From the NCBI GenBank assembly GCA_964491475.1, contig CAZBFO010000005.1, forward strand, positions 841 to 64,840: 64,000 bases of DNA, in the 5' to 3' direction. Below are positions 50,382 to 62,149 of the stretch, piece by piece. Below the pieces are notes generated by a model. The model worked only from the letters and a program-made list of their open reading frames with translations. It had not been told where the DNA came from and ran no database searches. Every line of letters begins with the position of its first letter. The stretch's first letter is position 1. This DNA is from an uncultured Gammaproteobacteria bacterium (lineage in GTDB: Bacteria; Patescibacteriota; Patescibacteriia; SG8-24). The translations under genes were made by a program, and so were the position numbers.

Positions 50382-50439
50382 ATGGATGTTTGCGCCGGCA
50401 TCTCGAGTCGTCCGAAAGCTTTAGACCATCGCAGGCTTG

Positions 50440-50620
50440 CGCTGCAGGTCTACGTGTCTTCGGGCGAGGTGGAGCCCCGGCGTGGTTAAAGTGCGTTTCC
50501 TAAAATGCGGATCGGCTCGTGGCCGAAAACCGCTCCGCAAGAGGCCGCTCGAGATGGCCGTCTTGCGAGTCGGTTTCCGGCCGCGCGGTCGGAAAGGCGC
50601 TTTCGCGCCGGAAACGCTAG
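50440..50620. repeat. Possible degenerate copy (D) of the GC-rich structured repeat family
   Basis: Imperfect inverted repeat ggccgaaaaccgctccgcaagaggcc / ggccgtcttgcgagtcggtttccggcc and an atgcggatcggctcgtggccga core. Confidence 0.3.
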
Positions 50621-51303
50621 TCGAGGCTAAGGTCGTTGTTGGCCGAGTCCGGCTTTTCTTCCTTCTTGTTCGGCTGCTGCCCGCGGCGCTGCGCGTTCCT
50701 GCGCGGCTGGCGCTGCTGGACCGGCCTGCCGTTCGGCCGTTGCGCCGTGGCAACCGTTCGCCCGCCAGTCGTACGAACCGTCGGATTCTTGGAAGCGCCG
50801 TCCTGCGGAGGCTTGATCAGGTAGCGCTCCAAGTCCTTGGACAGGTCGGTGAAGTCGTCGACGGCGTCCTTGAGCTTGGTGGCGGTGGTGTTGCCGAAGG
50901 CACAGACCTCCACTTGGCGTCCATGGTGTTTGAGATATTCCACCAACTCCACGAAGTCACCGTCACCGGTCACCAGGATGACCACGTCCAGAATCTCACC
51001 GATACGAATGGCGTCAACGGCGATGCCGACGTCCCAGTCGGCCTTCTTGGCGCCGGAGTCGAAAATTTGCAGAGGGCGCTTTTTGGTTTCGAGGCCGCGC
51101 TGGAACAAGGCGTCGAAGAAAGGCGTCTCTTCGCCCGTGGCCTCGACCACATAGGCGATGGCGCGGATGAGCTGGCGCCCCGCAACGGCAGTTTCCAGAA
51201 TGGCGCCGAAATCGACCTTGGAGTTGTAAAGATTCTTTGCCGAGTAATACATGTTTTGCACGTCGATGAAAACGCCGACGCGCTGGTCTTTGTGCTTGAT
51301 CAT
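50617..51303 (-). CDS. NYN-domain (LabA-like/DUF88) protein with basic low-complexity C-terminal tail
   Basis: VGVFIDVQNMYYSAKN....VILVTGDGDFVELVEYLKHHGRQVEV matches the NYN/LabA fold. Confidence 0.7.
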   Translation of the reverse strand: MIKHKDQRVGVFIDVQNMYYSAKNLYNSKVDFGAILETAVAGRQLIRAIAYVVEATGEETPFFDALFQRGLETKKRPLQIFDSGAKKADWDVGIAVDAIRIGEILDVVILVTGDGDFVELVEYLKHHGRQVEVCAFGNTTATKLKDAVDDFTDLSKDLERYLIKPPQDGASKNPTVRTTGGRTVATAQRPNGRPVQQRQPRRNAQRRGQQPNKKEEKPDSANNDLSLD

Positions 51304-51384
51304 AAAAGGGGCCTAGTTTGCGAGCCGAAGCGGCTCATAAAAAACGCGAGAACGCCGGCACGAGGCCGGCGTTCATCGGTGTCG

Positions 51385-51651
51385 TTATGCTGAAATTTTG
51401 AGGGCCTCCGACAATTCGGCGTATCCCTTGGCATCCTCGCGCTTCAGGTACTTGAGCAAGCGGCGGCGCTCGCTGACCTTGCGCATAAGACCTTTCCTAG
51501 AGGAAAAGTCCTTCTTGTGCGAGAGAAGGTGGCCAGTGAGGTCCTTGATCTCCGCCGTGAGGATGGCGATCTGGACCTGGGGGGAGCCGGTGTCCTTGTC
51601 GTGAGTCTTGTACTTCTCAATGATCTTCTCCTTTTGGCGCTTGTCCAACAT
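51385..51651 (-). CDS. rpsO: 30S ribosomal protein S15
   Basis: MLDKRQKEKIIEKYKTHDKDTGSPQVQIAILTAEIKDLTGHL.. is a typical S15. Confidence 0.9.
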   Translation of the reverse strand: MLDKRQKEKIIEKYKTHDKDTGSPQVQIAILTAEIKDLTGHLLSHKKDFSSRKGLMRKVSERRRLLKYLKREDAKGYAELSEALKISA

Positions 51652-51837
51652 ATTCGGTGCCTCCGGCGATTGCCGTGGCTGTTCGCGAGCATCCTAGCCG
51701 AAGCCGGGACGTCGTATGAGTTACCTGCCGATACTAGCAGCAGGCTTTGGCTTTGTAAAGGGGTATTTTGAGCCAAAAAGAAAAGGGATTGCGCTGGGCA
51801 ATCCCCCGAGAAAGGGCCTTTTTTCGGCCCGCTCTCT

Positions 51838-52626
51838 TTACGAGGCGTAGCCGCCGACGGCTTCGGAGACCATTCGAGGTCCGGAGAGGGGCGCGGACCC
51901 CTCGTCAACCGTCCCCGAGGGGACGATTTCGTCAGAGCGAGGCGGTGATTCCGACTCGAGCTCCGTCAAAAGGTCCTCCGAGGCAAGCTCGGTCTTGAGG
52001 GCGCCTCCGAACCCGAACTTTCTGGCCTCCTCCGCGCCACCGAAGAATCGCTCGATTGCGGCTTGGTCACGCGCGGTCATGACGGGTTGCATGGTCGGTA
52101 TCCGCGCCTCCTCGTCCTCGTAGATGTCGCACTCCTCGACCTCCATCGGTTCGTCGCCGTCGTCGAGGAACTGATCCACGGGGATTGCCCCCGTGAACTG
52201 GACACACCCCTTTGGCAGGCTCACGAACGGGTCGTTCACGAGCACGACAGCGGCGGTGACGTCGTTGCTGACGGGCGGGGCGGTGAGCGAGGGGGCCGGC
52301 GGAGCCGGCATCCGAATAACCGCGATGATGTTGTCGCACATCATCTTGAAGGCCCGGTTCCTCTCCCCGGAACCTGCGGTCTCGGGGGGAGGATTCAGGC
52401 AGATCCTGCGAGCCTCGGCGAGGTGCCCGGTGATGAGCAGCTGCCGAAGCTCGGCAGCAGTCGAACCGATGGCGTTCGGACGGAGACCGAACGCCCGAAG
52501 GATGTTCCAAATCTCCTTGATGTCCGTCGCGACGTTCCGTGCGCGGGCCTGCTCCTTGGTCTTAGCCAGGATTTGGCTGGCAAGAGAAAGGAGATTATAG
52601 ACCCCATTGGTCGACGATTGATGCAT
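51838..52626 (-). CDS. Hypothetical protein (262 aa), acidic C-terminal half
   Basis: Long ORF with plausible composition; no recognised family. Confidence 0.35.
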   Translation of the reverse strand: MHQSSTNGVYNLLSLASQILAKTKEQARARNVATDIKEIWNILRAFGLRPNAIGSTAAELRQLLITGHLAEARRICLNPPPETAGSGERNRAFKMMCDNIIAVIRMPAPPAPSLTAPPVSNDVTAAVVLVNDPFVSLPKGCVQFTGAIPVDQFLDDGDEPMEVEECDIYEDEEARIPTMQPVMTARDQAAIERFFGGAEEARKFGFGGALKTELASEDLLTELESESPPRSDEIVPSGTVDEGSAPLSGPRMVSEAVGGYAS

Positions 52627-52741
52627 TTTGAACCTCTGTGGTTGGTGTTATGGAACAGAATGTCTTTCAACCCAGCAGGGTCGAAAGAACCGATAATTAT
52701 TAGCAGAAACAAGCCATTTTGTCAACGGTGGAAGGTGTACA

Positions 52742-52868
52742 TGTGGATAGAATTTATATTGTGGATAATTCTGTGCACAAAAAGTATGCATAGTGGAAAA
52801 CTTATCCACCTTCTTTGATCAAATAGACGCAAGAACTATGTTGAAGTGAACACTTTATTTGTCCACAG
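52742..52868. promoter_or_regulatory. DnaA-box cluster in AT-rich region upstream of the 2623-aa giant gene
   Basis: TGTGGATAG 52742-52750, TGTGGATAA 52760-52768 (perfect), TTATCCACC 52802-52810, TTGTCCACA 52860-52868. It also contains GTGTACATGTG, which is shared with 16081-16091. Confidence 0.5.
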
Positions 52869-52984
52869 CAAGACTTTTCATATTTTTATCTAATTTTAGC
52901 CAAAAAAAAGACCATTTACCCTTGAAAAAAGTCGATTTTTTTGATATACTACTGTTGATTAGTAATTCAAATCAGTAAAAGCCT

Positions 52985-55900
52985 GTGTCCAAGATTTCCA
53001 AGGTCACGTTGCTCCAAAAAGCAACGGGAACGAGGAATGGACGTCAGGGTCTTTTCGGTTTCGCTTGGAGTTCTTTGCTGCTTGCAAGCCTCATTTCTGG
53101 ACTTTTTGCCAAATCCGTTGCCGCATCAGGCCCTTCAGCTAATCGCATCCTCAACTATCAAATCAGCCTGACGGACACTGCGAACTTTCCGGTGGCCGAT
53201 GGGGACAAGAGCATTTACCTGACGATTTACGACGCCAGCACGGGCGGTACCCAGCTGTTTACGGCTTGTTCCGTCGGTGCCAGTCCGACCGCCACGCCCG
53301 AGGCCATAACCGCCACATTCGTCGGAGGAAAAACGACCATTTTGATCGGCGATACGGCCACCTTGGTCTGCGCCGCAGGATCGCCTGTGCCGATTCCGGA
53401 TGACTTATTCAATAATACGTCGTTGTGGCTCGGCGTCACTGCCGAGTCCGACGCCGAAATGACCCCTCGCAAGCACCTCGTTTCGACGGGTTATTCGATG
53501 AACGCCGACAGGCTCGATGACCTCGATACCTCAAATGCCGGCGGGTCGAACGCTTTTGTGCCCGTGACCGACGCTTCGGGAAACTTCACGCTCACCAAGG
53601 ACGTGGACTTTGCCAGCGGGACGTTCGTGGTGGATTCAACGGGCTCCAACGTCGGAATCGGGACTGCCAGCCCTTCCGCACTCCTGTCCGTCGGCACGGG
53701 TTCGGCATTCCAGGTGGACGGCGCAGGCAACGTCAGCCTGAACGGCGGAGGGACGCTGATGCTCGGTTCGCAGACCTCTGACCCCACCGGCGCGAACGGC
53801 ATGACGTACTACAACAGCACTTCGGACGTTTTCCGCTGCTTTAGGAACAGCGCGTGGGGGGATTGCGACTCTTCGCGGCTTGATCAGCTTTCGGGCGCAA
53901 CTTCCGCGCACGGTCTTGACAGCGGTGACTTCGCGCAAACTTGGACATGGTCGCTCACGAGCGCGAACAACGCGGGCTTGACGCTCGGCGAAAGCAGCCC
54001 ATCGACGGCATCGGGCGCTCCTTCTGTCCTGACCGTCTCGACGCAATCCGGTTCGACGGCCTCGCCCGTTTACATCAAGAATCTCGGTGACGGTCCGAGT
54101 TTCCGCGTTGATGATGAAGGCGCAGACGCTACGCCCTTCTACATCAGCGCTGACGGCAACGTCGCGGTGGGCGCAGAGTCATTCGATATCGTCAATCCTG
54201 AAAAATTCAAGGTAGAAGGCGGCACCAACGGCACCATCAACATCATCAGCGGCTATGGCGACCGCGACGGCTATCTGCAGCTCAACATCCACAACCGCAA
54301 TGCTGGCGAGAATGCCTCGTCCGATTTGGTCGCCACTGCCGACGATGGCAACGAGAACGTGAATTACATCGACGTGGGCATCGACTCGTCGGGATACAAC
54401 AACGCCGACTACACCATAGTCGGGCCGCATGACGGTTACATGTACACGAACGGCGGCAACCTCGCCATCGGCACGCAAACGGCAGGAATGTCGATTAAAT
54501 TCCACACCGGAGACACGCTGGTCGGAAACGAGCGCATGCGGATCGACGGTGACGGCAACGTGGGCATCGGCACCACCTCCCCGGGTTCGAAACTCGACGT
54601 GAAGGGAGAGTTCCGACTTTCCGGCGCAACTTCCGGCTACGTCGGATTCGCGGCCGCTTCGGCGGCTGGTTCGACTACTTATACGTTGCCCAGCGCCGAC
54701 GGGAGCGCGGGATACGCGCTGATCACTAACGGATTAGGCACCCTTTCTTGGGCCGACGCCGCCACCAAATGGAACAGGACCGGAACGACGCTATCGCCGG
54801 TCAATGTCGGCGACGACATCACCACTTCTGGCAACATTTATACTACCGGTGGAGGCACCATTACTTCTGATGGCCTGTTCAGCGGCGCACTCGGTTTGGC
54901 CGTGGTCGGTGGCACCGTGAACGTCAACGCCAGCAGCAACTTCGACACCAACATTAATACCGGCAGCTCCACTGGCTCGGTGAACATCGGCAACGTCTCG
55001 TCAGGTGCCGTGACCATCACCTCCGGCGCGGGCATCACGCTGGCCGCAGGTGCCGCTTCGAACATTTCCAGCACCGCCGGCGATATCGTCTTCCAGCCCG
55101 CTGGCACGTCCACGAGCGCGGCAGTGCAGATCGGCGTCGGGGGTGCCGGTTCGACTACTCCCGACGTGCTCGCGCTCGACGTGAAATCCGATGCCGGCGA
55201 TCCTGCGGGCATGAATGGCGCGATGTATTACAACGACAGTGCGGCGAAGTTCCGCTGCTACGTCAACGGTTCGTGGTCCGATTGCGATACGACCGGCGGA
55301 ACGACGACGCTTCAGACCGCGTACAACGGCGGCGCCGCCATCACCACCAGCGGCTCCACGGACATCGCCTTCACGCTGACCTCGGGCAACTTCACGGCCG
55401 GCGGCGCGGGCGCCGTCAGTCTCACCCCGACCTCCGCCTCAAGCTTCACTTCCGGCGGCGCCCTCACGCTGACCGGCGGCGCGGCCTCGACCTGGGGCAC
55501 CTCGAGCGGAAACCTGACTCTCCAAGCTGCCGGTGCAGGTACGACAGCCGCAGTGCAAATCGGTGCGGGCGGATCGGGATCGACGACTCCAGACCTTTTC
55601 GGTGTTGACGTTAAGTCCACCTCGGGAGACCCGTCCGGCTTCAACGGAGCCATGTACTACAATGCCAATGCCAACGATTTTCGCTGCTATGTGAATGGCG
55701 GCTGGCAGAGCTGCGGTGCGACTGCTGCTTCGGCCACCACGTTGCAGCAGGCATACAACAGCGCCGCCGCCATCACCACCAGCGGCTCCACGGACATCGC
55801 CTTCACGCTGACCTCGGGCAACTTCACGGCAAGCGGGGCCGGCGCCGTCAGTCTCACCCCGACCTCCGCCTCCAGCTTCACCTCGGGCGGCGCGCTCACG

Positions 55901-58900
55901 TTCACCGGCGGCGCCTCCAGCACCTGGTCCACCTCCTCCGGCGCGCTGACCGTGGACTCCGCCGCCGCGCTCAACCTCGGCACCTCGAACGCCACCTCGG
56001 TGTCGCTGGGCAGGACCGGCGTGACCACCACCAACAACGGCGCGCTCACCTCAACGCAGACGCTGACTGCATCGAACGGCCTTACGCTCACGACTGGCGC
56101 GCTGAACCTCACGGCCACCAGCGGCACGCTCGCGATTTCGGGCCTCGGCGCGAGTTCCGTCAGCACCGGCTCCAACAGCCTTTCGCTCGTCGGCAGTCCC
56201 GTGAACGTCAACGCGTCCGGTTCCGGAACCGTCAATCTCGGAAGCGCGACCGCGGCGGTGAACCTTCCGGGCCTCACGGCCTCAAAGGTGGTCTTCACCG
56301 ACTCGTCCAAGAACCTGACCTCGTCTGGCACGGTCGGCATTGCGCAAGGCGGCACCGGACAGACCACCCAAACCGCCGGCTTCAATGCTTTGTCACCGCT
56401 GACGACGAAGGGCGACATCGTCGCATTCGACGGAACGGACAACGTGCGCATGCCCGTCGGCGGAACCAACGGCTTCGTACTGACGGTCGATTCGACGCAG
56501 GCAAACGGCATCAAGTGGTCCGCGCTGCCCAGTACCAGCCTGCAGAGCGCCTATAATGGCGGTGCCACCATCACCACCTCGGGGGCCACCAACATCGCCT
56601 TCACGCTGACCTCGGGCAACTTCACGGCAAGCGGGGCCGGCGCAGTCAATCTCACCCCGACCTCCGCCTCCAGCTTCACCTCGGGCGGCGCCCTCACGCT
56701 GACCGGCGGCGCCTCCAGCACCTGGTCCACCTCCTCCGGCGCGCTGACCGTGGACTCCGCCGCCGCGCTCAACCTCGGCACCTCGAACGCCACCTCGGTG
56801 TCGCTGGGCAGGACCGGCGTGACCACCACCAACAACGGCGGGTTGACCGTCACGCAGGCCACCACATTAAATGGGGGGCTGGCGGTGAACACCAGCGGGA
56901 GCGTTACCACCGATCAGGCCTCGTTTGATCTCATTAACGCCACGGCCACAACGCTTAACTTCGGCGGCGCGGCCACAGGCCTGACCATCGGCGCGACTAC
57001 GGGCACCGCGACCATCAGAAACGCCACGGTTACCCTCTCTAATGCCACGACCCTCAACATGAACGGGGCGAGCCCGAGCATCGTGACGTCGAGCAGCGGC
57101 ACCGCCAGCGTCTTCAACACCAACGCCGCCGTGCTCAACATGGGCGGTGCCGCCACCTCCGTGAGCATCGGCGCCTCGACCGGCACCATGACGCTGGCCA
57201 ACGGCACGATCAACCTTTCGAATGGCGTCCTCCAGACCGGCGGCACTCAGCGCCTCTCCAACGCCGGCGCGCTGTCGAACATCACCGGCATCAGCTCCTC
57301 CGGCACCATCACTTTCTCCGGCCTGACCGCCAGCCGCTTCGTGACCACCAACGGCTCCTCTGACCTGGCCACCTCGCAGAACTCCGCCGCGCTGTCCGCC
57401 ACCCTCACCGACGAGACCGGCTCCGGGGTCGCCGTCTTCGGCACCAGCCCGGCAATCACCACCTCGCTCACCACCGGCTCCGCCAGCTTCGACCTGCTGA
57501 ATACGACTGCGACTACGGTCAACTTTGCCGGTGCGGCGACCACCCTGAACGTCGGTATCGCCGGCGCCTCGGGCACGCTCGCGCTCATGGGCGGCAGCGG
57601 CAGCACCGGCTGCACCGTGGACGGCTCCACGGGCAACCTGACCTGTTCGGGCAATGTCGCCACTACCGCCACTTCCGGTACGCAAGGCTGGTGGAGCCGC
57701 TCCGGCACGACGATTCAGTCAGTCACCTCCGGAGACTCCCTCACCGTTTCCGGCTCCGGTGCATTCACGACCGGCACCGGTACCACCACCGTTAACGGCA
57801 CTTCAGTCGTCCTTGCCGGCAACTCCACGGTCATCGACATGACCGGAACGGGAACGCTTAGCCTCAACACGACGACGAACCGCGCCATCAGCACGGGCTC
57901 CGGATTGTTCACCGCGGGCGGCGCGCTCACCGCCACGGGACTCGTCACCGCAAACGGCGGCGTGACTCTCGCGGCAAACCAGAATTTCACGATGACTTCG
58001 GGTGCAGGTACTTCCACCCAGACTTTCACCGGCAGCTCGACCACCGCTGACACCATCGCCGCAGGTTCGCTGACTTCCGGCACCGCACTTGCGCTCACCG
58101 GCGGCTCGGCGATGACCACCGGCTCGCTGCTTACCGCCACCTCCGCCACTTACGTGCACACGGCTGCGGAAACGGGAAAAGTCATGAGCATCTCGTTAAC
58201 GGACGCCTCGACCAACTCCACCGGCGTGGCGTCCGTGACCACGGGATTGGATCTCGCCACGGCTTTCAACACTTCTGCCAGCGTCGGCTCGAAAACGATC
58301 AATGCCATGAACATTCCGGCGCTCTCCACCACCACCTGCGGCACCACCGGCGGCACCTGCGTGTGGAACGGCGTCCAGATGGCGACCCCCACGCTCTCGC
58401 AGACCACCACCAACGCCTATACCTTCAACGGCCTGAACCTGTCTTCGGCCGGCGCGCTGACGCAAAGCAGCACTGCGGGAACGATCAACTGGAACGGCGC
58501 GGCCATCGTCATGCCGAATATCACGCAGACGACGGGCACGATCACCTCTAACGGGCTGACGGTCACGATGGGAACGAGCACGACCGGAGGCACGCAGAAC
58601 GGCCTGCTCATCAAGGATTCCAGCAGCATCGCGACTGCCGCGCACGACTCGGCCATTCTCGTACAAGACAGCAGCGGCAACTCGCTGTTCGACGTAAGGG
58701 AGATGACCAGCGCCAACAACAACTTCGGCGCGACTGCCACGACGGGGGCGTTCATCGATCGCAACTCGACCTACCGCGAAGAGTTCAACAGTTTCCACGG
58801 GACGAATACGACGGCGACGACGGCGCAGATTCGCGGCGACGGCGGCGGCGCCGGCAGCGGCGAACTTAGCTTGAGCGTCGTTACCGTCGGTGCCGGCGGT

Positions 58901-60856
58901 TCCGGCACGGCGGCATCGCAAAACACCACGAACGGAGTGGAACGGCTCACTCCGGTTTCTGGCAACGCAAACGGAAGAACCGCGGCTATCCTCGAATACC
59001 TCGGTACCGCCACTACGGGAACCGCAAACAACATCTATGCGGCCGCGAACCTCCCCGTCGTTACCGTAAAGGCGAAGGTGGACGTGGCTGGCGCGAACAA
59101 CCGCGTGTTCATCGGCATCAGCGACGCGGCAGCGGCGGTCACGACCATGCCCACCAACGGCATCTTCTTCTCCAACTGCACCGCTTCTGCCACCTGCGAC
59201 GCGAACTGGCACGGTGTCGTCAACAATGCGGGCGCGGTCACCACCGTATCTTGCGGCGCAGTCGACACGTCGCACTTCGCCTACGGTCGAATCGAGGTGC
59301 GCTCCACGACCGACGTCCACTTCTTCATGGACACCAACGTTTCAGACGGCATCGTCGAAACGGAATGCGGAACCGGCCTCGTCGCGACTCCCAGCGCGGT
59401 CATGACGACATTGATTCAGGCTGCTTCGTTGAGTACGGCTGCCGCGACTAACACCACGAACCTCGACGTCGATTACGTTCGGACTTGGCAGGACGACGCT
59501 TCTTCGGAAGGCGCGGTCGCTTCGATAACTCCTGCCGCCCCCGCACCCCTGACCGACGACGACCTCCTGGGGGCGCTGGTCTCCCAGGCAAGCCTCCGCC
59601 CCGTCGATCAGACACCGGCAGACACTGCCGTCGATCGCTTGGTGGCAGGATTATCGGTGATTTCGCCAAAAGGCACTTTTGAAGGACTGTTCGCCAAGAC
59701 CGTGGAAGCGGACATCCTCGCGCTGAAAGACGTGGCCACCGCGGTGTCACGGTCCATCTCTTACGACGGTTCGGTCGGTCTGACCGGCGACATGATGCGC
59801 ACCGACGCATCTGGCTGGGCCGCGTCCACGCACGGCTTCGCGGACATGTTCGCCTCGAACGATTCGCTCTCGGAAGGCGACATCGTGATGGTCGACGCCG
59901 CCAATGCGACCAAGGTAGTTCGCGCCGTCAAGGACGACGCCCATCCGGACTTCCTGCTTGCCGGCATCGTGGCGTCTCGCCCGGGATACATCGCCGGAAT
60001 GAACGAGGCTGACAGCTATCCGGTCGCAGTCCAAGGCCGCGCCACCGTGAAGGTGAAGGGGCCGATCGCCATCGGCGATCCGATTACGGTCTCCGACACG
60101 CCCGGCGTCGGCTCCGTCGCGACCGACCCCACTTACATCATCGGCATCGCGCTACAGGCCAAAATCGGCGACGACAGCGGCCTTGTGACCGTATTCGTCC
60201 GCCCCGGCTGGTTCAACGGCAGCACCGTGCAGCCGCAGAACACTGCGGTATCCGGCATCAATCCAGGCGCACTCGTCATGGATGACAGTATCGCGGATTT
60301 CGCCTCTCGCGCGCTGACCGGAGTCGGCGCCATCCAAGGCATCGACAGCCTTTGGAACATCGACGGCAACGGCAAACTGACCATCAAGGAAATCAGCGCA
60401 GAGAACGTTTCTGTCACGCAGACCGACACTTCGTCTACCATGGAAACGGGCGTGATGCTTTCAGGCGAAGTCGTGACCCAGGTGCACAACGCTTCCGTGA
60501 AGCCGACGTCTCGCGTCTTCGTCACCTTCCGCAAGGATCCCGGCAGCAGCTGGTGGGTCGAGGACATCGGAGAAGGGTTCTTCACGCTCAAGGTGCGTCA
60601 GCCCGTGGTGGAGGACGTGCCCTTCGATTATTGGGTGGTCGGCGTGAATGACTTGCGAACCAGCCCGAAGGCGCCGGTATCAGCGCCTGGTGCTCCTGCG
60701 GAGCCGACCGTGCCGGTGCAAGCAGTCGAATCGCCGACAGTTACGCTGCCGAACGCGCCTCAAACCGATAGTGCGCCTGCGCCCGATGCCGTCTCCGATG
60801 GTACTGATACAGGTTCCTCGACCGGCGAAACCGCTGCCTCAACGACGAACCCGTAG
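52985..60856 (+). CDS. Giant (2623 aa) secreted/surface beta-helix fibre-repeat protein. It has an N-terminal signal/TM, repeated G(M/A)MYYNxxxxxFRCYxNGxWxDC and IGIGTTSPxSKLDVKG motifs, and long near-identical internal repeats. A conserved C-terminal domain (GDIVMVDA...PGYIAGM...PVAVQGRATVKVKGPIAIGDPITVSD.PGVG..ATDPTYIIGIALQA...GLVTVFVRPGW) recalls tail-fibre/appendage-like surface proteins
   Basis: Single uninterrupted ORF with a GTG start at 52985. The repeat structure is visible at both protein and DNA level. The minus-strand shadow ORFs 53491..53802 and 55687..56514 mirror shadows of the 1..5995 paralogue. Confidence 0.8.
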   Translation: MSKISKVTLLQKATGTRNGRQGLFGFAWSSLLLASLISGLFAKSVAASGPSANRILNYQISLTDTANFPVADGDKSIYLTIYDASTGGTQLFTACSVGASPTATPEAITATFVGGKTTILIGDTATLVCAAGSPVPIPDDLFNNTSLWLGVTAESDAEMTPRKHLVSTGYSMNADRLDDLDTSNAGGSNAFVPVTDASGNFTLTKDVDFASGTFVVDSTGSNVGIGTASPSALLSVGTGSAFQVDGAGNVSLNGGGTLMLGSQTSDPTGANGMTYYNSTSDVFRCFRNSAWGDCDSSRLDQLSGATSAHGLDSGDFAQTWTWSLTSANNAGLTLGESSPSTASGAPSVLTVSTQSGSTASPVYIKNLGDGPSFRVDDEGADATPFYISADGNVAVGAESFDIVNPEKFKVEGGTNGTINIISGYGDRDGYLQLNIHNRNAGENASSDLVATADDGNENVNYIDVGIDSSGYNNADYTIVGPHDGYMYTNGGNLAIGTQTAGMSIKFHTGDTLVGNERMRIDGDGNVGIGTTSPGSKLDVKGEFRLSGATSGYVGFAAASAAGSTTYTLPSADGSAGYALITNGLGTLSWADAATKWNRTGTTLSPVNVGDDITTSGNIYTTGGGTITSDGLFSGALGLAVVGGTVNVNASSNFDTNINTGSSTGSVNIGNVSSGAVTITSGAGITLAAGAASNISSTAGDIVFQPAGTSTSAAVQIGVGGAGSTTPDVLALDVKSDAGDPAGMNGAMYYNDSAAKFRCYVNGSWSDCDTTGGTTTLQTAYNGGAAITTSGSTDIAFTLTSGNFTAGGAGAVSLTPTSASSFTSGGALTLTGGAASTWGTSSGNLTLQAAGAGTTAAVQIGAGGSGSTTPDLFGVDVKSTSGDPSGFNGAMYYNANANDFRCYVNGGWQSCGATAASATTLQQAYNSAAAITTSGSTDIAFTLTSGNFTASGAGAVSLTPTSASSFTSGGALTFTGGASSTWSTSSGALTVDSAAALNLGTSNATSVSLGRTGVTTTNNGALTSTQTLTASNGLTLTTGALNLTATSGTLAISGLGASSVSTGSNSLSLVGSPVNVNASGSGTVNLGSATAAVNLPGLTASKVVFTDSSKNLTSSGTVGIAQGGTGQTTQTAGFNALSPLTTKGDIVAFDGTDNVRMPVGGTNGFVLTVDSTQANGIKWSALPSTSLQSAYNGGATITTSGATNIAFTLTSGNFTASGAGAVNLTPTSASSFTSGGALTLTGGASSTWSTSSGALTVDSAAALNLGTSNATSVSLGRTGVTTTNNGGLTVTQATTLNGGLAVNTSGSVTTDQASFDLINATATTLNFGGAATGLTIGATTGTATIRNATVTLSNATTLNMNGASPSIVTSSSGTASVFNTNAAVLNMGGAATSVSIGASTGTMTLANGTINLSNGVLQTGGTQRLSNAGALSNITGISSSGTITFSGLTASRFVTTNGSSDLATSQNSAALSATLTDETGSGVAVFGTSPAITTSLTTGSASFDLLNTTATTVNFAGAATTLNVGIAGASGTLALMGGSGSTGCTVDGSTGNLTCSGNVATTATSGTQGWWSRSGTTIQSVTSGDSLTVSGSGAFTTGTGTTTVNGTSVVLAGNSTVIDMTGTGTLSLNTTTNRAISTGSGLFTAGGALTATGLVTANGGVTLAANQNFTMTSGAGTSTQTFTGSSTTADTIAAGSLTSGTALALTGGSAMTTGSLLTATSATYVHTAAETGKVMSISLTDASTNSTGVASVTTGLDLATAFNTSASVGSKTINAMNIPALSTTTCGTTGGTCVWNGVQMATPTLSQTTTNAYTFNGLNLSSAGALTQSSTAGTINWNGAAIVMPNITQTTGTITSNGLTVTMGTSTTGGTQNGLLIKDSSSIATAAHDSAILVQDSSGNSLFDVREMTSANNNFGATATTGAFIDRNSTYREEFNSFHGTNTTATTAQIRGDGGGAGSGELSLSVVTVGAGGSGTAASQNTTNGVERLTPVSGNANGRTAAILEYLGTATTGTANNIYAAANLPVVTVKAKVDVAGANNRVFIGISDAAAAVTTMPTNGIFFSNCTASATCDANWHGVVNNAGAVTTVSCGAVDTSHFAYGRIEVRSTTDVHFFMDTNVSDGIVETECGTGLVATPSAVMTTLIQAASLSTAAATNTTNLDVDYVRTWQDDASSEGAVASITPAAPAPLTDDDLLGALVSQASLRPVDQTPADTAVDRLVAGLSVISPKGTFEGLFAKTVEADILALKDVATAVSRSISYDGSVGLTGDMMRTDASGWAASTHGFADMFASNDSLSEGDIVMVDAANATKVVRAVKDDAHPDFLLAGIVASRPGYIAGMNEADSYPVAVQGRATVKVKGPIAIGDPITVSDTPGVGSVATDPTYIIGIALQAKIGDDSGLVTVFVRPGWFNGSTVQPQNTAVSGINPGALVMDDSIADFASRALTGVGAIQGIDSLWNIDGNGKLTIKEISAENVSVTQTDTSSTMETGVMLSGEVVTQVHNASVKPTSRVFVTFRKDPGSSWWVEDIGEGFFTLKVRQPVVEDVPFDYWVVGVNDLRTSPKAPVSAPGAPAEPTVPVQAVESPTVTLPNAPQTDSAPAPDAVSDGTDTGSSTGETAASTTNP
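55796..56042 (+). repeat. Intragenic direct repeat copy 2 (247 bp)
   Basis: About 98% identical (5 mismatches) to 56594..56840. Its first about 90 bp are also shared with 55365..55455. Confidence 0.8.
56594..56840 (+). repeat. Intragenic direct repeat copy 3 (247 bp)
   Basis: Near-identical to 55796..56042 (differences cgtcagtctc/agtcaatctc and gcgctcacgttcacc/gccctcacgctgacc). Confidence 0.8.
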
Positions 60857-60952
60857 CTCGTCAGCGAAACCGCGCGGCATGCACGCTGCGCGTTTTCGTT
60901 TTCCCCAGCCCGCGCTTTCGCCGGTGCGTCGCCTAACGTATACTTGCCGCGT

Positions 60953-61900
60953 ATGGCGAAATCCACCGAATTGGTAACCGATTACCTTAATTACCTCGAA
61001 ATCGAACGCAACCGTTCCATTCGAACGGTAAGGAATTACGATTTCTACCTTCGTAGGTTTTTCACGTGGGCAAAGGGCATTCGGCCAGAGGCAATCACTC
61101 TCGACACCATACGCGCTTACCGCCTTTGGCTGAATCGTTATCGAGACGACAACGGCCGCGAAATGAAGAAAAACACCCAGAACTACCATCTCATCGCCCT
61201 GCGTTCGTTCCTCAAATACTTGGCCAAGAGGGATATCAAGACGCTGGCATCCGAAAAAATAGAGCTGGCCAAGATGCCCGAACGTTCGGTGGAATTTTTG
61301 GCCGCAGGGGAGTTGGAACGCCTGCTCGATGCTCCACTTAACGGTGGAAAAGTTGTTGATAAGACTGTGGGCATCTTGTCGCTCCGCGACAAGGCGATTC
61401 TGGAAATGCTTTTTTCCACCGGTTTGCGCGTGTCGGAGCTGGCCGGACTCAATCGAAAGATACTGAACTTGAAGCAGGAAGAGTTCACCGTGCGCGGTAA
61501 AGGCGACAAGCCGCGCGTTGTTTTCCTGTCCAATCAGGCTAGGTATTGGCTCAAACAGTATTTGGACAGGAGAAAAGACATCGATCCGGCCATCTTTGTG
61601 AGTCATGATCGTGCCGCAAATGGCCGCGAAACTGCAGGAGGACTTACTCCAAGAAGCATCCAGAGGATCGTTGAGCATTATGCCAGGGCCGCAGGCATCA
61701 CCAAGCGCATCACGCCGCACACGGTCCGCCACACCTTTGCCACCGATTTGCTGCGCAACGGAGCCGATATCCGCAGCGTGCAGACGCTTCTGGGCCATGC
61801 CTCCATAACCACCACCCAGATTTACACCCATATCACCGACGAACGCCTGCGAGAGGTGTACAATACCTTCCACGGTAAGCGCCGGAAAAAGGAGAATTAA
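60953..61900 (+). CDS. Tyrosine site-specific recombinase, XerC/XerD family
   Basis: N-terminal core-binding (SAM-like) domain, catalytic R...HTVRHTFAT...LGHASITTTQIYTH (R-H-R-Y tetrad). Confidence 0.8.
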   Translation: MAKSTELVTDYLNYLEIERNRSIRTVRNYDFYLRRFFTWAKGIRPEAITLDTIRAYRLWLNRYRDDNGREMKKNTQNYHLIALRSFLKYLAKRDIKTLASEKIELAKMPERSVEFLAAGELERLLDAPLNGGKVVDKTVGILSLRDKAILEMLFSTGLRVSELAGLNRKILNLKQEEFTVRGKGDKPRVVFLSNQARYWLKQYLDRRKDIDPAIFVSHDRAANGRETAGGLTPRSIQRIVEHYARAAGITKRITPHTVRHTFATDLLRNGADIRSVQTLLGHASITTTQIYTHITDERLREVYNTFHGKRRKKEN

Positions 61901-61981
61901 GCCCGTCGTTATTGACGGGTAAGCAAAAACTTGGTATCTTCCGCGAGTGCCAAGTACGACGCAACAGCGACCGCGCGCCAT

Positions 61982-62058
61982 GTGCCCGTAGCTCAGCTGG
62001 ATAGAGCAGCTGCCTTCTAAGCAGCAGGTCGGACGTTCGATTCGTCCCGGGCACACCA
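61982..62058 (+). tRNA. tRNA-Arg (anticodon TCT), CCA encoded
   Basis: Acceptor GTGCCCG/CGGGCAC, D arm GCTC-AGCTGGATA-GAGC, anticodon arm GCTGC-CTTCTAA-GCAGC, T arm GGACG-TTCGATT-CGTCC, ACCA. Confidence 0.85.
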
Positions 62059-62073
62059 CAAAAAAGACCACAT

Positions 62074-62149
62074 GGTGGCTATGGTGTAATGGTTAACACA
62101 GCGGGTTGTGGTCCCGCTGATGAGGGTTCGATTCCCTCTAGCCACCCCA
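62074..62149 (+). tRNA. tRNA-His (anticodon GTG) with G-1, CCA encoded
   Basis: Extra 5' G paired to discriminator C73, acceptor GTGGCTA/TAGCCAC, D arm GTGT-AATGGTTA-ACAC, anticodon arm GCGGG-TTGTGGT-CCCGC, T arm GAGGG-TTCGATT-CCCTC. Confidence 0.85.

What the first reader, a model, noticed from the sequence alone, without database searches (positions are those of the whole stretch)
52985..60856. Giant fibre protein with recently homogenised 247-bp internal repeats and a tail-fibre-like C-terminal domain
Repeats at 55796-56042 and 56594-56840 are about 98% identical at DNA level, and a third partial copy lies at 55365-55455. This implies ongoing intragenic recombination or gene conversion that could vary repeat number and antigenic length. 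The protein carries a recurring G(A/M)MYYNxxxxxFRCYxNGxWxDC motif and IGIGTTSPxSKLDVKG motifs. Its C-terminal module (GDIVMVDA..PGYIAGM..VKVKGPIAIGDPITVSD..ATDPTYIIGIALQA..GLVTVFVRPGW) recalls the conserved C-terminal domain of phage tail-fibre/appendage-like bacterial surface proteins.
Basis: partly seen in the sequence, partly recalled or inferred. Interest (0 to 1): 0.6.

Follow-up and report, generated by a model that had tools for sequence, protein, structure and literature searches.

The report
Giant phage-fibre-like surface fibre of Patescibacteria
This gene encodes a 2,623-residue secreted fibre built from phage tail-fibre parts; its internal repeats show sequence copying between copies and a change in copy number, and its C-terminal assembly domain, related to that of the phage phi29 appendage protein, has lost the conserved self-cleavage motif.

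Summary
ORF 52985-60856 (+) is one 2,623-aa gene. 55796-56042 and 56594-56840 are 242/247 identical, with sharp edges (flanks 67% and 48%). A third copy is about 90% identical. All quoted motifs are present.

- Repeats: paralogous units share lineage-specific residues within each relative. The closest relative has four units; this gene lacks exactly one 432-nt period, with the junction inside the repeat core.
- C-terminus: aa 2284-2425 is a beta-tulip domain related to the phi29 gp12 pre-neck-appendage autochaperone (Peptidase_G2). Support comes from a profile match to PDB 3gqh (E=0.011), PF11962 hits in relatives, and Foldseek hits to 3gqh/3suc and to viral "preneck appendage" models (E=1.8e-9).
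- Shaft: aa 440-602 matches five crystal structures of Bdellovibrio MAT fibres (E=5e-12).
- Setting: the gene lies in the chromosome of a Patescibacteria (CPR) genome. The protein has a signal peptide, eight close cysteine pairs, and a confidently modelled N-domain conserved at the start of relatives.

One departure: the family's D-x-A-E boundary motif (D 95%, E 98%) reads G-F-A-D here, and there is no S74 motif. The assembly module is therefore probably retained rather than cleaved.

Verdict: a real feature and a new variant of a known kind. Interest is moderate.

The parts
52922..52950 (+). Promoter-like site (TTGAAA-17-TATACT, TG-extended), 35 nt upstream of the GTG start
   Evidence: consensus scan only; sequence
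52985..60856 (+). Whole gene: 2,623 aa, 259 kDa, pI 4.3, T+S+G+A = 52%
52985..53125 (+). Signal peptide or signal anchor, aa 1-47. Basic n-region, and the protein's only hydrophobic segment (aa 22-41, LFGFAWSSLLLASLISGLF), then AKSVAAS|G
   Evidence: hydropathy; the cleavage site is inferred
53126..53629 (+). Conserved beta-rich N-domain, aa 48-215 (NYQ..LTD...EMTPRK motif; Cys95/Cys129). It lies directly after the signal peptide in at least 45 relatives
   Evidence: AF2 pLDDT 92-98 for aa ~55-165. No PDB fold relative
53651..53692 (+). Capping-loop-type motif 1, VGIGTASPSALLSV (aa 223-236)
   Evidence: consensus taken from PMC10769870
53798..53866 (+). Knob 1, GMTYYNSTSDVFRCFRNSAWGDC (aa 272-294; Cys285/Cys294). 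Modelled as a small three-stranded beta unit
54302..54790 (+). MAT-type beta-helix shaft module, aa 440-602, including capping loop 2, VGIGTTSPGSKLDV (aa 526-539)
   Evidence: 8ond Bd2133 E=5e-12, 8oml 1e-6, 8ol4/8onf 1e-4, 8ojn, 8on4;
55217..55285 (+). Knob 2, GAMYYNDSAAKFRCYVNGSWSDC (aa 745-767)
55289..55588 (+). Repeat unit 1, short type (aa 769-868). It contains the third, about 90% identical DNA copy (55340-55500)
55646..55714 (+). Knob 3, GAMYYNANANDFRCYVNGGWQSC (aa 888-910)
55721..56095 (+). Repeat unit 2, long type (aa 913-1037). It contains the near-identical tract 55796-56042
56519..56893 (+). Repeat unit 3, long type (aa 1179-1303). It contains the near-identical tract 56594-56840. 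Relative to P0002 it is a hybrid of units 3 and 4
56894..58771 (+). Distal shaft, aa 1304-1929. Thr/Ser/Gly/Ala-rich (61%), with degenerate sub-repeats and Cys pairs 1543/1554 and 1785/1792
   Evidence: no PDB sequence relative
58772..59584 (+). Lineage-specific tip domain, aa 1930-2200 (Cys 2065/2071 and 2090/2128). Among 350 collected relatives it is shared only with P0002. Candidate ligand-binding end
   Evidence: no PDB or Pfam match; function inferred
59585..59833 (+). Linker, aa 2201-2283, shared with P0002 and P0092
59834..59845 (+). Degenerate autocleavage motif G2284-F-A-D2287, where the family has D-x-A-E
59834..60259 (+). Peptidase_G2-like beta-tulip intramolecular-chaperone domain, aa 2284-2425 (related to phi29 gp12 D4)
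60287..60694 (+). C-terminal beta-sandwich 'domain B', aa 2435-2570. It is conserved across the family and resembles tailspike C-terminal sandwiches
   Evidence: 7eea, 2vbm; rmsd 2.5-3.6 A over 72-77 columns
60695..60853 (+). Pro/Thr/Ser/Ala-rich tail, aa 2571-2623. No LPXTG motif and no transmembrane segment
60871..60902 (+). Terminator-like GC-rich hairpin followed by a T-run, 15 nt after the stop codon
   Evidence: consensus scan only

Best explanation
The gene encodes a Sec-exported surface fibre, presumably homotrimeric, of an uncultured Patescibacteria (CPR) bacterium. It is assembled from phage tail-fibre building blocks.

From N- to C-terminus it has:
- a signal peptide;
- a conserved beta-rich N-domain, inferred to be the cell-proximal base;
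- a shaft about 1,700 residues long, containing MAT-type beta-helix modules with capping loops, three small disulphide-bonded 'YYN..FRC..W..C' knobs, and three copies of a 100-125-aa Thr/Ser/Gly-rich unit;
- a lineage-specific tip domain, inferred to bind the ligand;
- a conserved C-terminal module: a Peptidase_G2-type beta-tulip intramolecular chaperone (as in phi29 gp12 D4), a beta-sandwich, and a Pro-rich tail.

Inferred mechanism. After export, the C-terminal module trimerises and nucleates folding of the intertwined shaft, as in phi29 gp12. In canonical family members it would then cut itself off at the D-x-A-E boundary and expose the variable tip. In this protein the boundary reads G-F-A-D and no S74 site exists, so the module most likely stays attached, as does the uncleaved C-terminal domain of the P22 tailspike.

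The dispersed repeats evolve in concert. A roughly 250-nt gene-conversion tract makes units 2 and 3 98% identical, and unequal in-register recombination has removed one 432-nt period relative to the closest homologue. This changes shaft length.

Shown: domain homologies, motif loss, repeat identity, and the unit-number difference. Inferred: trimer formation, surface display, adhesin role, and lack of cleavage.
For: Gene and repeats.

Concerted evolution: each protein's units share their own residues. This protein has GAGAVxLTPTSASSFTSGGALT, P0002 has GAGSVLLTPTGASSFTSGAALT, and P0010 has TPIAFTLTSGDFNVSGAGAVALTPTSASS. Unit 2 vs unit 3 here is 87% identical, against 75-78% to the P0002 counterparts.

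Unit number: P0002 has four units at spacings 441/798/432. The global alignment shows one clean 144-aa gap, with the junction at LTLTGGAxST|WSTS. Relatives carry two to four units.

Shaft: aa 440-602 hits five Bdellovibrio MAT crystal structures, best E=5e-12, and the alignments centre on the GNVGIGTxxPxxKLxV loops. MAT fibres are trimeric, surface-displayed adhesins of a predatory bacterium (PMC10769870).

C-module:
- The profile of 11 modules hits 3gqh_A (phi29 gp12 C-terminal fragment) at E=0.011, and the alignment begins at residue 1 of the cleaved fragment, DFAEYF.
- PF11962 Peptidase_G2 is found in 4 of 11 members, best E=2.7e-10.
- The AF2 model's first confident strand starts at the motif.
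- Foldseek PDB returns beta-tulip proteins plus 3gqh_A (E=4.9e-3, prob 1.00) and 3suc.
- Foldseek BFVD returns 'Preneck appendage protein' at the top, E=1.8e-9, 28% identity, with 72 viral hits at E<=1e-3.
- A canonical relative's module hits phage virion or tail proteins by tblastn.
- gp12 D4 is described as tandem beta-tulips acting as an autochaperone that is cleaved off (bioRxiv 10.1101/216911; PMC3357383).

Family size and position: 2,562 clusters at E<=1e-3, and the match lies near the C-terminus in the listed full-length proteins.

Motif census: D in 246 of 258 and E in 254 of 259 aligned instances. This protein has GFAD, the only instance of that form. Its closest relative, P0092, has GYAD but keeps an upstream canonical DLAE copy. 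This protein has no D[FYLVI][AS]E in that context and no SDxxxK anywhere.

Extracellular location: the only hydrophobic segment is aa 22-41, and the 16 Cys form eight close pairs.

Cellular rather than phage origin: the neighbours are PNPase, DinB, ComM, PolA and PBP1. No neighbour has a PHROG structural hit. The PNPase is 58% identical at best to Patescibacteria MAGs.

The N-domain follows the signal peptide in at least 45 relatives and is modelled at pLDDT 92-98.
Against: - No experiment or multimer model shows a trimer.
- The protein's own sequence does not reach any Pfam family, including PF11962. The direct PDB sequence match to gp12 is borderline (E=0.011) and comes from a family profile.
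- The C-module model has a mean pLDDT of only 58, although the two domains themselves score 70-88.
- Homology of the N-domain to the Bdellovibrio MAT N-domain could not be tested, because the afdb50 library was unavailable, and the PDB has no relative.
- The repeat unit, distal shaft and tip have no structural assignment.
- That D and E are the catalytic residues of family G2 rests on my memory of MEROPS and Xiang et al. 2009, a paper not held in the library, together with the conservation census. Cleavage by another route is possible.
- Which end faces the cell is inferred by analogy.
- Read-level support for the repeats is lacking.
Confidence: 0.68

Rival explanations
1. The C-terminal module is still removed after assembly, despite the GFAD motif. 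This could happen through residual autocatalysis (Asp replacing Glu) or a separate protease, so that the lineage-specific tip becomes the free distal end as in canonical family members.
For: The rest of the domain is well conserved: 42-63% identity to relatives and all core motifs are present. D2287 keeps a carboxylate where the family has Glu. Several relatives have G at the first position but keep E (GFAE in P0012, P0016, P0091, P0096), so a G at P1' may be tolerated.
Against: D and E are 95% and 98% conserved across 259 instances, and only this protein and P0092 change both. P0092 compensates with an upstream canonical copy, which this protein lacks. The closest overall relative, P0002, has dropped the domain entirely, which suggests relaxed need for cleavage in this lineage.
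Confidence: 0.25
2. The gene is a tail-fibre gene of an integrated prophage or other mobile element, not a cellular surface protein.
For: All recognisable domains have phage counterparts. A XerC/D-type tyrosine recombinase (60944-61900) and two tRNA genes lie immediately downstream.
Against: The protein has an N-terminal signal peptide and eight Cys pairs, which virion proteins assembled in the cytoplasm do not need. It appears to be monocistronic, with its own promoter-like and terminator-like sites. The flanking genes are housekeeping (PNPase, DinB, ComM), and no neighbour hits a PHROG structural family. The recombinase scores best as XerC/XerD. GC content matches the surroundings. Hundreds of relatives in Patescibacteria genomes share the same signal-peptide-plus-N-domain start.
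Confidence: 0.05
3. The 98% identical tracts are an assembly artefact, for example collapsed or chimeric reads from strain variants, rather than true paralogous copies.
For: The source is a metagenome-assembled contig. A 247-nt repeat is longer than typical k-mers. I had no read data.
Against: Both copies sit in frame in one uninterrupted 7.9-kb ORF, between unique and different flanks. They differ at five positions. An independent assembly of a 70%-identical homologue (GCA_037916205.1) has the same repeat family with the same 432 and 798-nt spacings. The concerted-evolution signature is seen in several other relatives.
Confidence: 0.04
4. It is a structural envelope or S-layer-type component, or an autotransporter-like adhesin (the JGI label on some relatives), rather than a phage-fibre-like trimer.
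For: JGI names three relatives 'fibronectin-binding autotransporter adhesin'. The composition is Thr/Ser/Gly-rich with a weak periodicity of about 17 residues, which would also fit a single-chain beta-solenoid.
Against: No autotransporter beta-barrel, SLH or other envelope-anchor domain is found in Pfam or NCBIfam. Patescibacteria are generally regarded as lacking an outer membrane (my own knowledge). The specific matches are to trimeric MAT fibres and to a trimerising phage autochaperone.
Confidence: 0.06

Closest known systems
Bdellovibrio bacteriovorus MAT (mosaic adhesive trimer) fibres, e.g. Bd2133 and Bd3182 (Caulton et al. 2024, PMC10769870)
   Same: Both have a signal peptide, then a conserved beta-rich N-domain, then a long fibre, then a variable tip. 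The shaft module aa 440-602 is sequence-homologous to five MAT crystal structures, including the capping-loop motif. Both are mosaic, with ends exchanged between paralogues. Both belong to small bacteria that live by attaching to other cells; for this organism that lifestyle is assumed from what is known of Patescibacteria.
   Different: This protein is about 2.5 times longer (2,623 vs ~1,000 aa). It ends in a Peptidase_G2-type chaperone, a beta-sandwich and a Pro-rich tail, rather than S74 or a bare tip. Homology of the N-domains is untested. The host is a Patescibacteria, regarded as monoderm, not a Gram-negative predator. It also carries Cys-bonded knobs and large concerted repeats.
Bacillus phage phi29 gp12 pre-neck appendage, C-terminal D4 autochaperone (PDB 3GQH/3SUC; Pfam PF11962, Peptidase_G2)
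   Same: Both have a beta-tulip fold at the C-terminal end of a beta-helical fibre. The family's domain boundary DFAE aligns with the first residues of the cleaved gp12 fragment. The role is presumed to be nucleation of trimer folding.
   Different: The motif is GFAD here, so cleavage is probably lost. The domain is followed by an extra beta-sandwich and tail. The protein is cellular and secreted, not a virion protein. Its own sequence does not reach the Pfam threshold.
Peptidase_S74 intramolecular chaperone fibres (K1F endosialidase, T5 pb1, 'tail fiber domain-containing proteins' of Patescibacteria)
   Same: Many relatives of this protein (P0013, P0014, P0016-P0018, P0021 and others) carry PF13884, and the shaft elements and capping loops are shared.
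   Different: This protein has no PF13884 hit and no SDxxxK motif. In P0016 and P0014 the S74 domain lies 40-135 aa upstream of the G2-type module, so the two chaperone types are distinct and can coexist.
Salmonella phage P22 tailspike C-terminal domain
   Same: It is a C-terminal trimerisation or auto-chaperone domain that is not cleaved and remains part of the mature fibre (PMC3357383). This is the behaviour proposed here. Domain B resembles the C-terminal sandwiches of the tailspikes of Shigella phage Sf6 and cyanophage Pam1.
   Different: No sequence homology was shown, and the fold of the chaperone part differs.

Membership tests
MAT superfamily (Caulton et al. 2024) | Signal peptide immediately followed by a conserved beta-rich N-terminal domain (~130 aa) | tested here: inconclusive
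   A conserved beta-rich domain (aa ~48-215; pLDDT 92-98) directly follows the signal peptide here and in at least 45 relatives. Homology to the Bdellovibrio N-domain could not be tested: afdb50 was unavailable, the PDB has no relative, and no Bdellovibrio names appear among the top 120 profile hits.
MAT superfamily (Caulton et al. 2024) | Beta-helical shaft modules with capping loops (consensus V-G-G/N-pi-x-x-P-x-x-x-L) | tested here: met
   aa 440-602 matches 8ond (E=5e-12), 8oml, 8ol4/8onf, 8ojn and 8on4. The motifs are VGIGTASPSALL (aa 223) and VGIGTTSPGSKL (aa 526). The consensus is quoted.
MAT superfamily (Caulton et al. 2024) | C-terminus is either an S74 chaperone (SDxxxK) or a non-S74 tip domain | tested here: met
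   There is no PF13884 hit and no SDxxxK, so it would fall in the 'NS74' class. Its terminus (G2-type chaperone plus sandwich) is not among those described in the sections I read.
MAT superfamily (Caulton et al. 2024) | Intertwined homotrimer displayed on the cell surface | not testable with these tools
   Only monomer AF2 was available. Surface location is inferred from the signal peptide and eight Cys pairs.
Peptidase_G2 / phi29 gp12 D4 autochaperone (PF11962) | Sequence match to the family model | tested here: not met
   The protein's own sequence gives no PF11962 hit at E<=1. Four of 11 aligned homologous modules do hit, best E=2.7e-10, and the family profile hits 3gqh_A at E=0.011. It is therefore a divergent homologue, not a scoring member.
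Peptidase_G2 / phi29 gp12 D4 autochaperone (PF11962) | Beta-tulip fold like 3GQH | tested here: met
   Foldseek PDB gives 3gqh_A E=4.9e-3, prob 1.00, TMt 0.50, also 3suc and other beta-tulip proteins. BFVD gives 'Preneck appendage protein' at E=1.8e-9, TMt 0.63. The domain is modelled at pLDDT 70-88.
Peptidase_G2 / phi29 gp12 D4 autochaperone (PF11962) | Conserved self-cleavage boundary (Ser|Asp-x-Ala-Glu in gp12; the identity of the catalytic residues is from my memory of MEROPS and Xiang 2009) | tested here: not met
   This protein has G2284-F-A-D2287. In the family, D is present in 246 of 258 and E in 254 of 259 instances.
Peptidase_G2 / phi29 gp12 D4 autochaperone (PF11962) | Located at the C-terminal end of a beta-helical fibre or spike | tested here: met
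   aa 2284-2425 of 2,623. The homologous match lies near the C-terminus in the listed full-length proteins.
Peptidase_G2 / phi29 gp12 D4 autochaperone (PF11962) | Autocatalytic cleavage and release after trimerisation | not testable with these tools
   This requires expression of the C-terminal fragment.
Peptidase_S74 (endosialidase chaperone, PF13884) | PF13884 match with the catalytic SDxxxK motif | tested here: not met
   No hit and no SDxxxK anywhere, although relatives P0014 and P0016 have it.
Autotransporter adhesin (JGI label on relatives) | C-terminal beta-barrel translocator domain | tested here: not met
   No Pfam or NCBIfam hit of that kind. The C-terminus is a beta-tulip, a sandwich and a Pro-rich tail.

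The most novel reading that the evidence does not exclude
This protein and its 2,500-cluster family could be the host-attachment fibres of episymbiotic Patescibacteria, domesticated from phage tail fibres. In that reading, a G2-type chaperone that normally cuts itself off has been converted, in this lineage, into a permanent distal cap through loss of the D-x-A-E site. Fibre length would be tuned by recombination among large dispersed repeats to reach across different host envelopes.
Probability: 0.2. Interest if true: 0.6.

Novelty: new variant of a known kind. Interest (0 to 1): 0.4.

Why it matters
Patescibacteria are ultra-small bacteria, and the cultured examples live attached to host cells. 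The molecules that recognise the host are largely unknown. This gene gives a concrete, testable candidate: a fibre with recognisable parts (base, shaft, tip, assembly module) whose closest characterised bacterial analogues mediate prey recognition in Bdellovibrio.

The result also links two chaperone systems, S74 and G2, within one large mosaic family that is poorly covered by Pfam: the N-domain, the C-terminal sandwich and most of the shaft matched no Pfam model. It offers a natural pair of cleavage-motif-positive and cleavage-motif-negative variants for studying how phi29-type autochaperones work. The repeats are a clean example of concerted evolution, and of unit gain or loss altering the length of a surface fibre.

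It does not reveal a new principle.

Tried and rejected
Searches and tools that gave nothing useful:
- A homologue search with the C-module alone returned one protein, a limit of the word index. The exhaustive HMMER search was needed instead.
- The search for related loci with alignment A2 failed in both the genome and viral collections, because no stretch was conserved enough.
- The window's own protein is not in the contig index, so the source record was not identified. The genome scan with PNPase found only relatives of 58% identity or less.
- Xiang et al. 2009 is not held, and literature searches for the G2 catalytic residues found nothing.
- tblastn of this protein's own C-module against phages gave no match. 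Only a canonical relative gave hits.
- PDB sequence searches of the tip, the repeat region and the distal shaft gave nothing.
- The NCBIfam hit to XopAP (E=0.008, 15 bits against a cut-off of 400) was rejected as noise.
- The exact 36-mer scan of metagenome contigs for strain variants gave 0 hits.
- TRF found no tandem repeats.
- Autocorrelation gave only a weak period of about 17 residues.

A gap of my own making: I used the second structure prediction on the N-domain and knob rather than on the repeat unit, so the fold of the repeat unit remains unassigned.

Readings rejected: prophage tail fibre, autotransporter, and assembly artefact. The reasons are given under the rival explanations.
Full report
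**1. The observation**

The region 52985-60856 (+) is one uninterrupted ORF of 2,623 codons with a GTG start. It is identical to a database protein from a 129-kb NCBI contig (P0001). The third copy, 55365-55455, is 84/91 identical to the second, and its homology really extends over about 55304-55500.

The copies are dispersed in frame at spacings of 432 and 798 nt. They are not tandem, and TRF finds nothing.

The 98% tract has sharp edges. The 60 nt upstream are still repeat-homologous but only 67% identical, and the 52 nt downstream are 48% identical. The five differences within the tract are two synonymous changes, S956N, and F973L (two nucleotides).

The quoted peptide motifs are all present. 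YYN..FRC..W..C occurs three times, at aa 275, 748 and 891. VGIGT(T/A)SP occurs twice, at aa 223 and 526. The C-terminal strings appear in the translation.

**2. Setting**

The window has 58.8% GC and the gene 63%. The neighbours are housekeeping genes:
- PNPase, DinB and ComM;
- PolA and a class-A PBP;
- five tRNAs.

The PNPase is 58% identical at best to MAGs labelled Patescibacteria group, Buchananbacteria, Magasanikbacteria, Falkowbacteria and Uhrbacteria. Named relatives of the giant protein are mostly Patescibacteria. The organism is therefore a Patescibacteria (CPR) lineage that is not among the species representatives searched.

The gene has a promoter-like site 35 nt upstream and a GC-rich hairpin with a T-run 15 nt after the stop codon, so it looks monocistronic. 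No neighbour matches a phage structural family.

**3. Anatomy of the protein**

The protein is 259 kDa with pI 4.3, and 52% of its residues are Thr, Ser, Gly or Ala. BLAST against 89 homologues shows a mosaic:

(a) aa 1-47 is a signal peptide or signal anchor. It holds the only hydrophobic segment in the protein.

(b) aa 48-215 is a beta-rich N-domain. It sits directly after the signal peptide in at least 45 relatives and in hundreds of database fragments. AF2 models it at pLDDT 92-98. It has no Pfam model and no PDB fold relative.

(c) aa 216-602 contains a first knob and a module, aa 440-602, that hits five crystal structures of Bdellovibrio bacteriovorus MAT fibres. These are 8ond Bd2133 (E=5e-12), 8oml, 8ol4/8onf, 8ojn and 8on4. 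The alignments centre on the 'GNVGIGTxxPxxKLxV' loops. These are the capping loops of the trimeric beta-helix described by Caulton et al. (PMC10769870).

(d) aa 603-1303 is the repeat region. It holds knobs 2 and 3 and units 1-3 (aa 769-868, 913-1037 and 1179-1303).

(e) aa 1304-1929 is a further Thr/Ser/Gly-rich shaft with degenerate copies of the same unit.

(f) aa 1930-2200 is a tip domain shared only with P0002 among the 350 proteins collected. It has no match in PDB or Pfam.

(g) The C-terminal module, aa 2255-2570, consists of sub-domain A (aa ~2284-2425) and sub-domain B (aa ~2435-2570). A Pro-rich tail follows.

All 16 cysteines fall into eight close pairs. That is what one expects of an exported, disulphide-stabilised protein.

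**4. The C-terminal module**

The exhaustive HMMER search finds 2,562 clusters at E<=1e-3. In the full-length proteins among the 150 listed hits the match lies near the C-terminus; the listed proteins, some of them fragments, range from 174 to 4,559 aa.

Several lines of evidence tie sub-domain A to the phi29 gp12 autochaperone:
- A profile of 11 modules hits the phi29 gp12 C-terminal fragment 3gqh_A (E=0.011). The alignment starts at residue 1 of that cleaved fragment, with DFAEYF matching the family consensus DFAExFP.
- Four of the 11 modules hit Pfam PF11962, Peptidase_G2 'IMC autoproteolytic cleavage domain', best E=2.7e-10. This window's own sequence does not hit it.
- The AF2 model has a mean pLDDT of 58, but 70-88 in the two domains.
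- Foldseek against the PDB returns beta-tulip proteins: the phi29 gp8.5 base, HFTV1 and other capsid decoration or cement proteins. It also returns 3gqh_A (E=4.9e-3, prob 1.00) and pre-mature gp12, 3suc.
- Foldseek against BFVD returns a 'Preneck appendage protein' at the top (E=1.8e-9, 28% identity, TMt 0.63), with 72 viral hits at E<=1e-3.
- A canonical relative's module hits virion or tail proteins of PA5oct-like Pseudomonas phages and of Campylobacter phages by tblastn, and those matches start at the Asp of DYAE.

Sub-domain B aligns with the C-terminal beta-sandwiches of the Pam1 and Sf6 tailspikes, at rmsd 2.5-3.6 A over 72-77 columns.

The literature held here describes gp12 D4 as tandem beta-tulips. 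They act as an autochaperone needed for trimer assembly and are then cleaved off. Rossmann's group had already noted homology to bacterial adhesins (bioRxiv 10.1101/216911; PMC3357383).

**5. The departure from the family**

I examined 259 aligned instances of the domain from 230 proteins. The first residue is Asp in 246 of 258, and the fourth is Glu in 254 of 259. This protein has G2284-F-A-D2287. It is the only instance of GFAD. Its closest module relative, P0092 (63% identity), has GYAD but keeps a second, canonical copy (DLAE) upstream.

This protein has no other D[FYLVI][AS]E in an equivalent context and no S74 SDxxxK motif. The closest overall homologue, P0002, keeps the tip, a B-like sandwich and a Pro-rich tail, but has no G2 domain at all.

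I infer that self-cleavage is dispensable in this lineage and probably lost here. The module would then remain on the mature fibre, as does the uncleaved C-terminal domain of the P22 tailspike. That Asp and Glu are the catalytic pair of family G2 rests on my memory of MEROPS and Xiang et al. 2009, a paper I could not retrieve. The conservation census supports functional constraint at these positions independently of that.

**6. The repeats**

Units from one protein share residues that differ between proteins:
- this protein: GAGAVxLTPTSASSFTSGGALT;
- P0002: GAGSVLLTPTGASSFTSGAALT;
- P0010: TPIAFTLTSGDFNVSGAGAVALTPTSASS.

Units 2 and 3 here are 87% identical to each other, but only 75-78% identical to their counterparts in P0002. 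That pattern is concerted evolution.

The P0002 gene (locus L001, from the independent assembly GCA_037916205.1) has four units at spacings 441/798/432. A global alignment shows that this gene lacks exactly 144 aa, which is 432 nt or one period. The junction lies inside the repeat core, at LTLTGGAxST|WSTS. This is the signature of unequal, in-register homologous recombination. Relatives carry two to four units.

The sharp-edged 247-nt tract is best read as a recent gene-conversion tract laid over older, more diverged paralogy.

An assembly artefact is unlikely for three reasons: the flanks are unique and in frame, the copies differ at five positions, and an independent assembly shows the same architecture. 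I had no reads to check this directly.

**7. How it most likely works**

Shown here: the domain homologies, the export signal, the mosaic conservation (both ends conserved, middle and tip variable), the motif loss, and the repeat dynamics.

Inferred: the protein is exported by Sec. The C-terminal module, which emerges last, trimerises and templates folding of the intertwined shaft. The conserved N-domain holds the fibre at the cell surface. The lineage-specific tip, here probably still capped by the retained module, contacts a ligand on another cell.

The closest characterised bacterial analogues are the MAT fibres. They are surface-displayed trimers with a conserved base and swapped tips, used by Bdellovibrio to recognise prey. 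By analogy, and given that cultured Patescibacteria are epibionts (my own knowledge), host attachment is the most plausible role.

**8. Comparison and novelty**

The protein works like a MAT or phage tail fibre, but membership is only partly established. The shaft and capping-loop criterion is met. The N-domain criterion is untested. The terminus is of a type (G2 plus sandwich plus tail) not described in the MAT sections I read.

It is a divergent homologue of Peptidase_G2, but it fails both the Pfam score and the cleavage motif. It is not an S74 protein and not an autotransporter.

I rate it a new variant of a known kind. It is a real and tidy example, useful as a candidate host-attachment fibre of CPR bacteria and as a natural non-cleaving G2 variant. 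It is not conceptually surprising. Interest: 0.4.

**9. Gaps**

There is no multimer model. The N-domain was not compared with AlphaFold models of Bdellovibrio MATs, since that library was unavailable. There is no read-level check of the repeats. The source record was not identified.

Noticed in passing
window 6336-12014 (-): A second giant ORF of 1,891 aa carries Pur_ac_phosph_N, fn3 and CarboxypepD_reg domains. It is another large putative surface protein of a different architecture in the same 64-kb window.
   Followed up: partly
window 60944-61900 (+), 61982-62149 (+): A XerC/XerD-type tyrosine recombinase (TIGR02224/TIGR02225, E~1e-71) lies 88 nt downstream of the fibre gene. It is followed by tRNA-Arg(TCT) and tRNA-His(GTG). 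The 410-aa minus-strand ORF 60839-62071 overlaps both and is probably spurious.
   Followed up: partly
relatives P0014 (aa 4095-4147 and 4188-4488) and P0016 (aa 2128-2181 and 2316-2625): Some relatives carry a Peptidase_S74 chaperone 40-135 aa upstream of the G2-type module. That places two different intramolecular chaperones in series in one protein.
   Followed up: partly
relatives P0012, P0092, P0093, P0094, P0111, P0109: Many relatives have two copies of the G2-type sub-domain about 220-250 aa apart. Where the C-terminal copy has lost the Asp (GFAE or GYAD; P0012 and P0092), the upstream copy keeps a canonical D-x-[AS]-E.
   Followed up: partly
L001 570-11204 (P0002, GCA_037916205.1): The closest homologue (70% identity over aa 258-1257) is 3,544 aa long and begins with a diverged N-terminal domain of similar motif pattern (KILSHQGRLLD..SPRQ). 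It lacks the G2 domain but keeps the same tip, a B-like sandwich and a Pro-rich tail with its own 27/87-nt repeats.
   Followed up: partly
relatives P0073, P0074, P0078, P0088 (table): Several giant relatives are annotated with PF14890 (an intein family, as I recall it; not checked here). Others carry LVIVD (PF08309), LamG-type, collagen (P0340) or DUF7452 (P0326, P0332) domains attached to the same N-domain. This shows extensive domain shuffling in the family.
   Followed up: no
window 55000-58000: GC skew is strongly negative (-0.12 to -0.20) inside the repeat and shaft part of the gene, against about +0.05 in the upstream genes. This presumably reflects C-rich Thr, Ser and Ala codons rather than replication strand.
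   Followed up: no
window 50437-52818: The ORFs between PNPase and the fibre gene (318, 262, 154 and 251 aa, on both strands) have no Pfam, NCBIfam or PHROG match. GC content drops to 52-58% there.
   Followed up: partly
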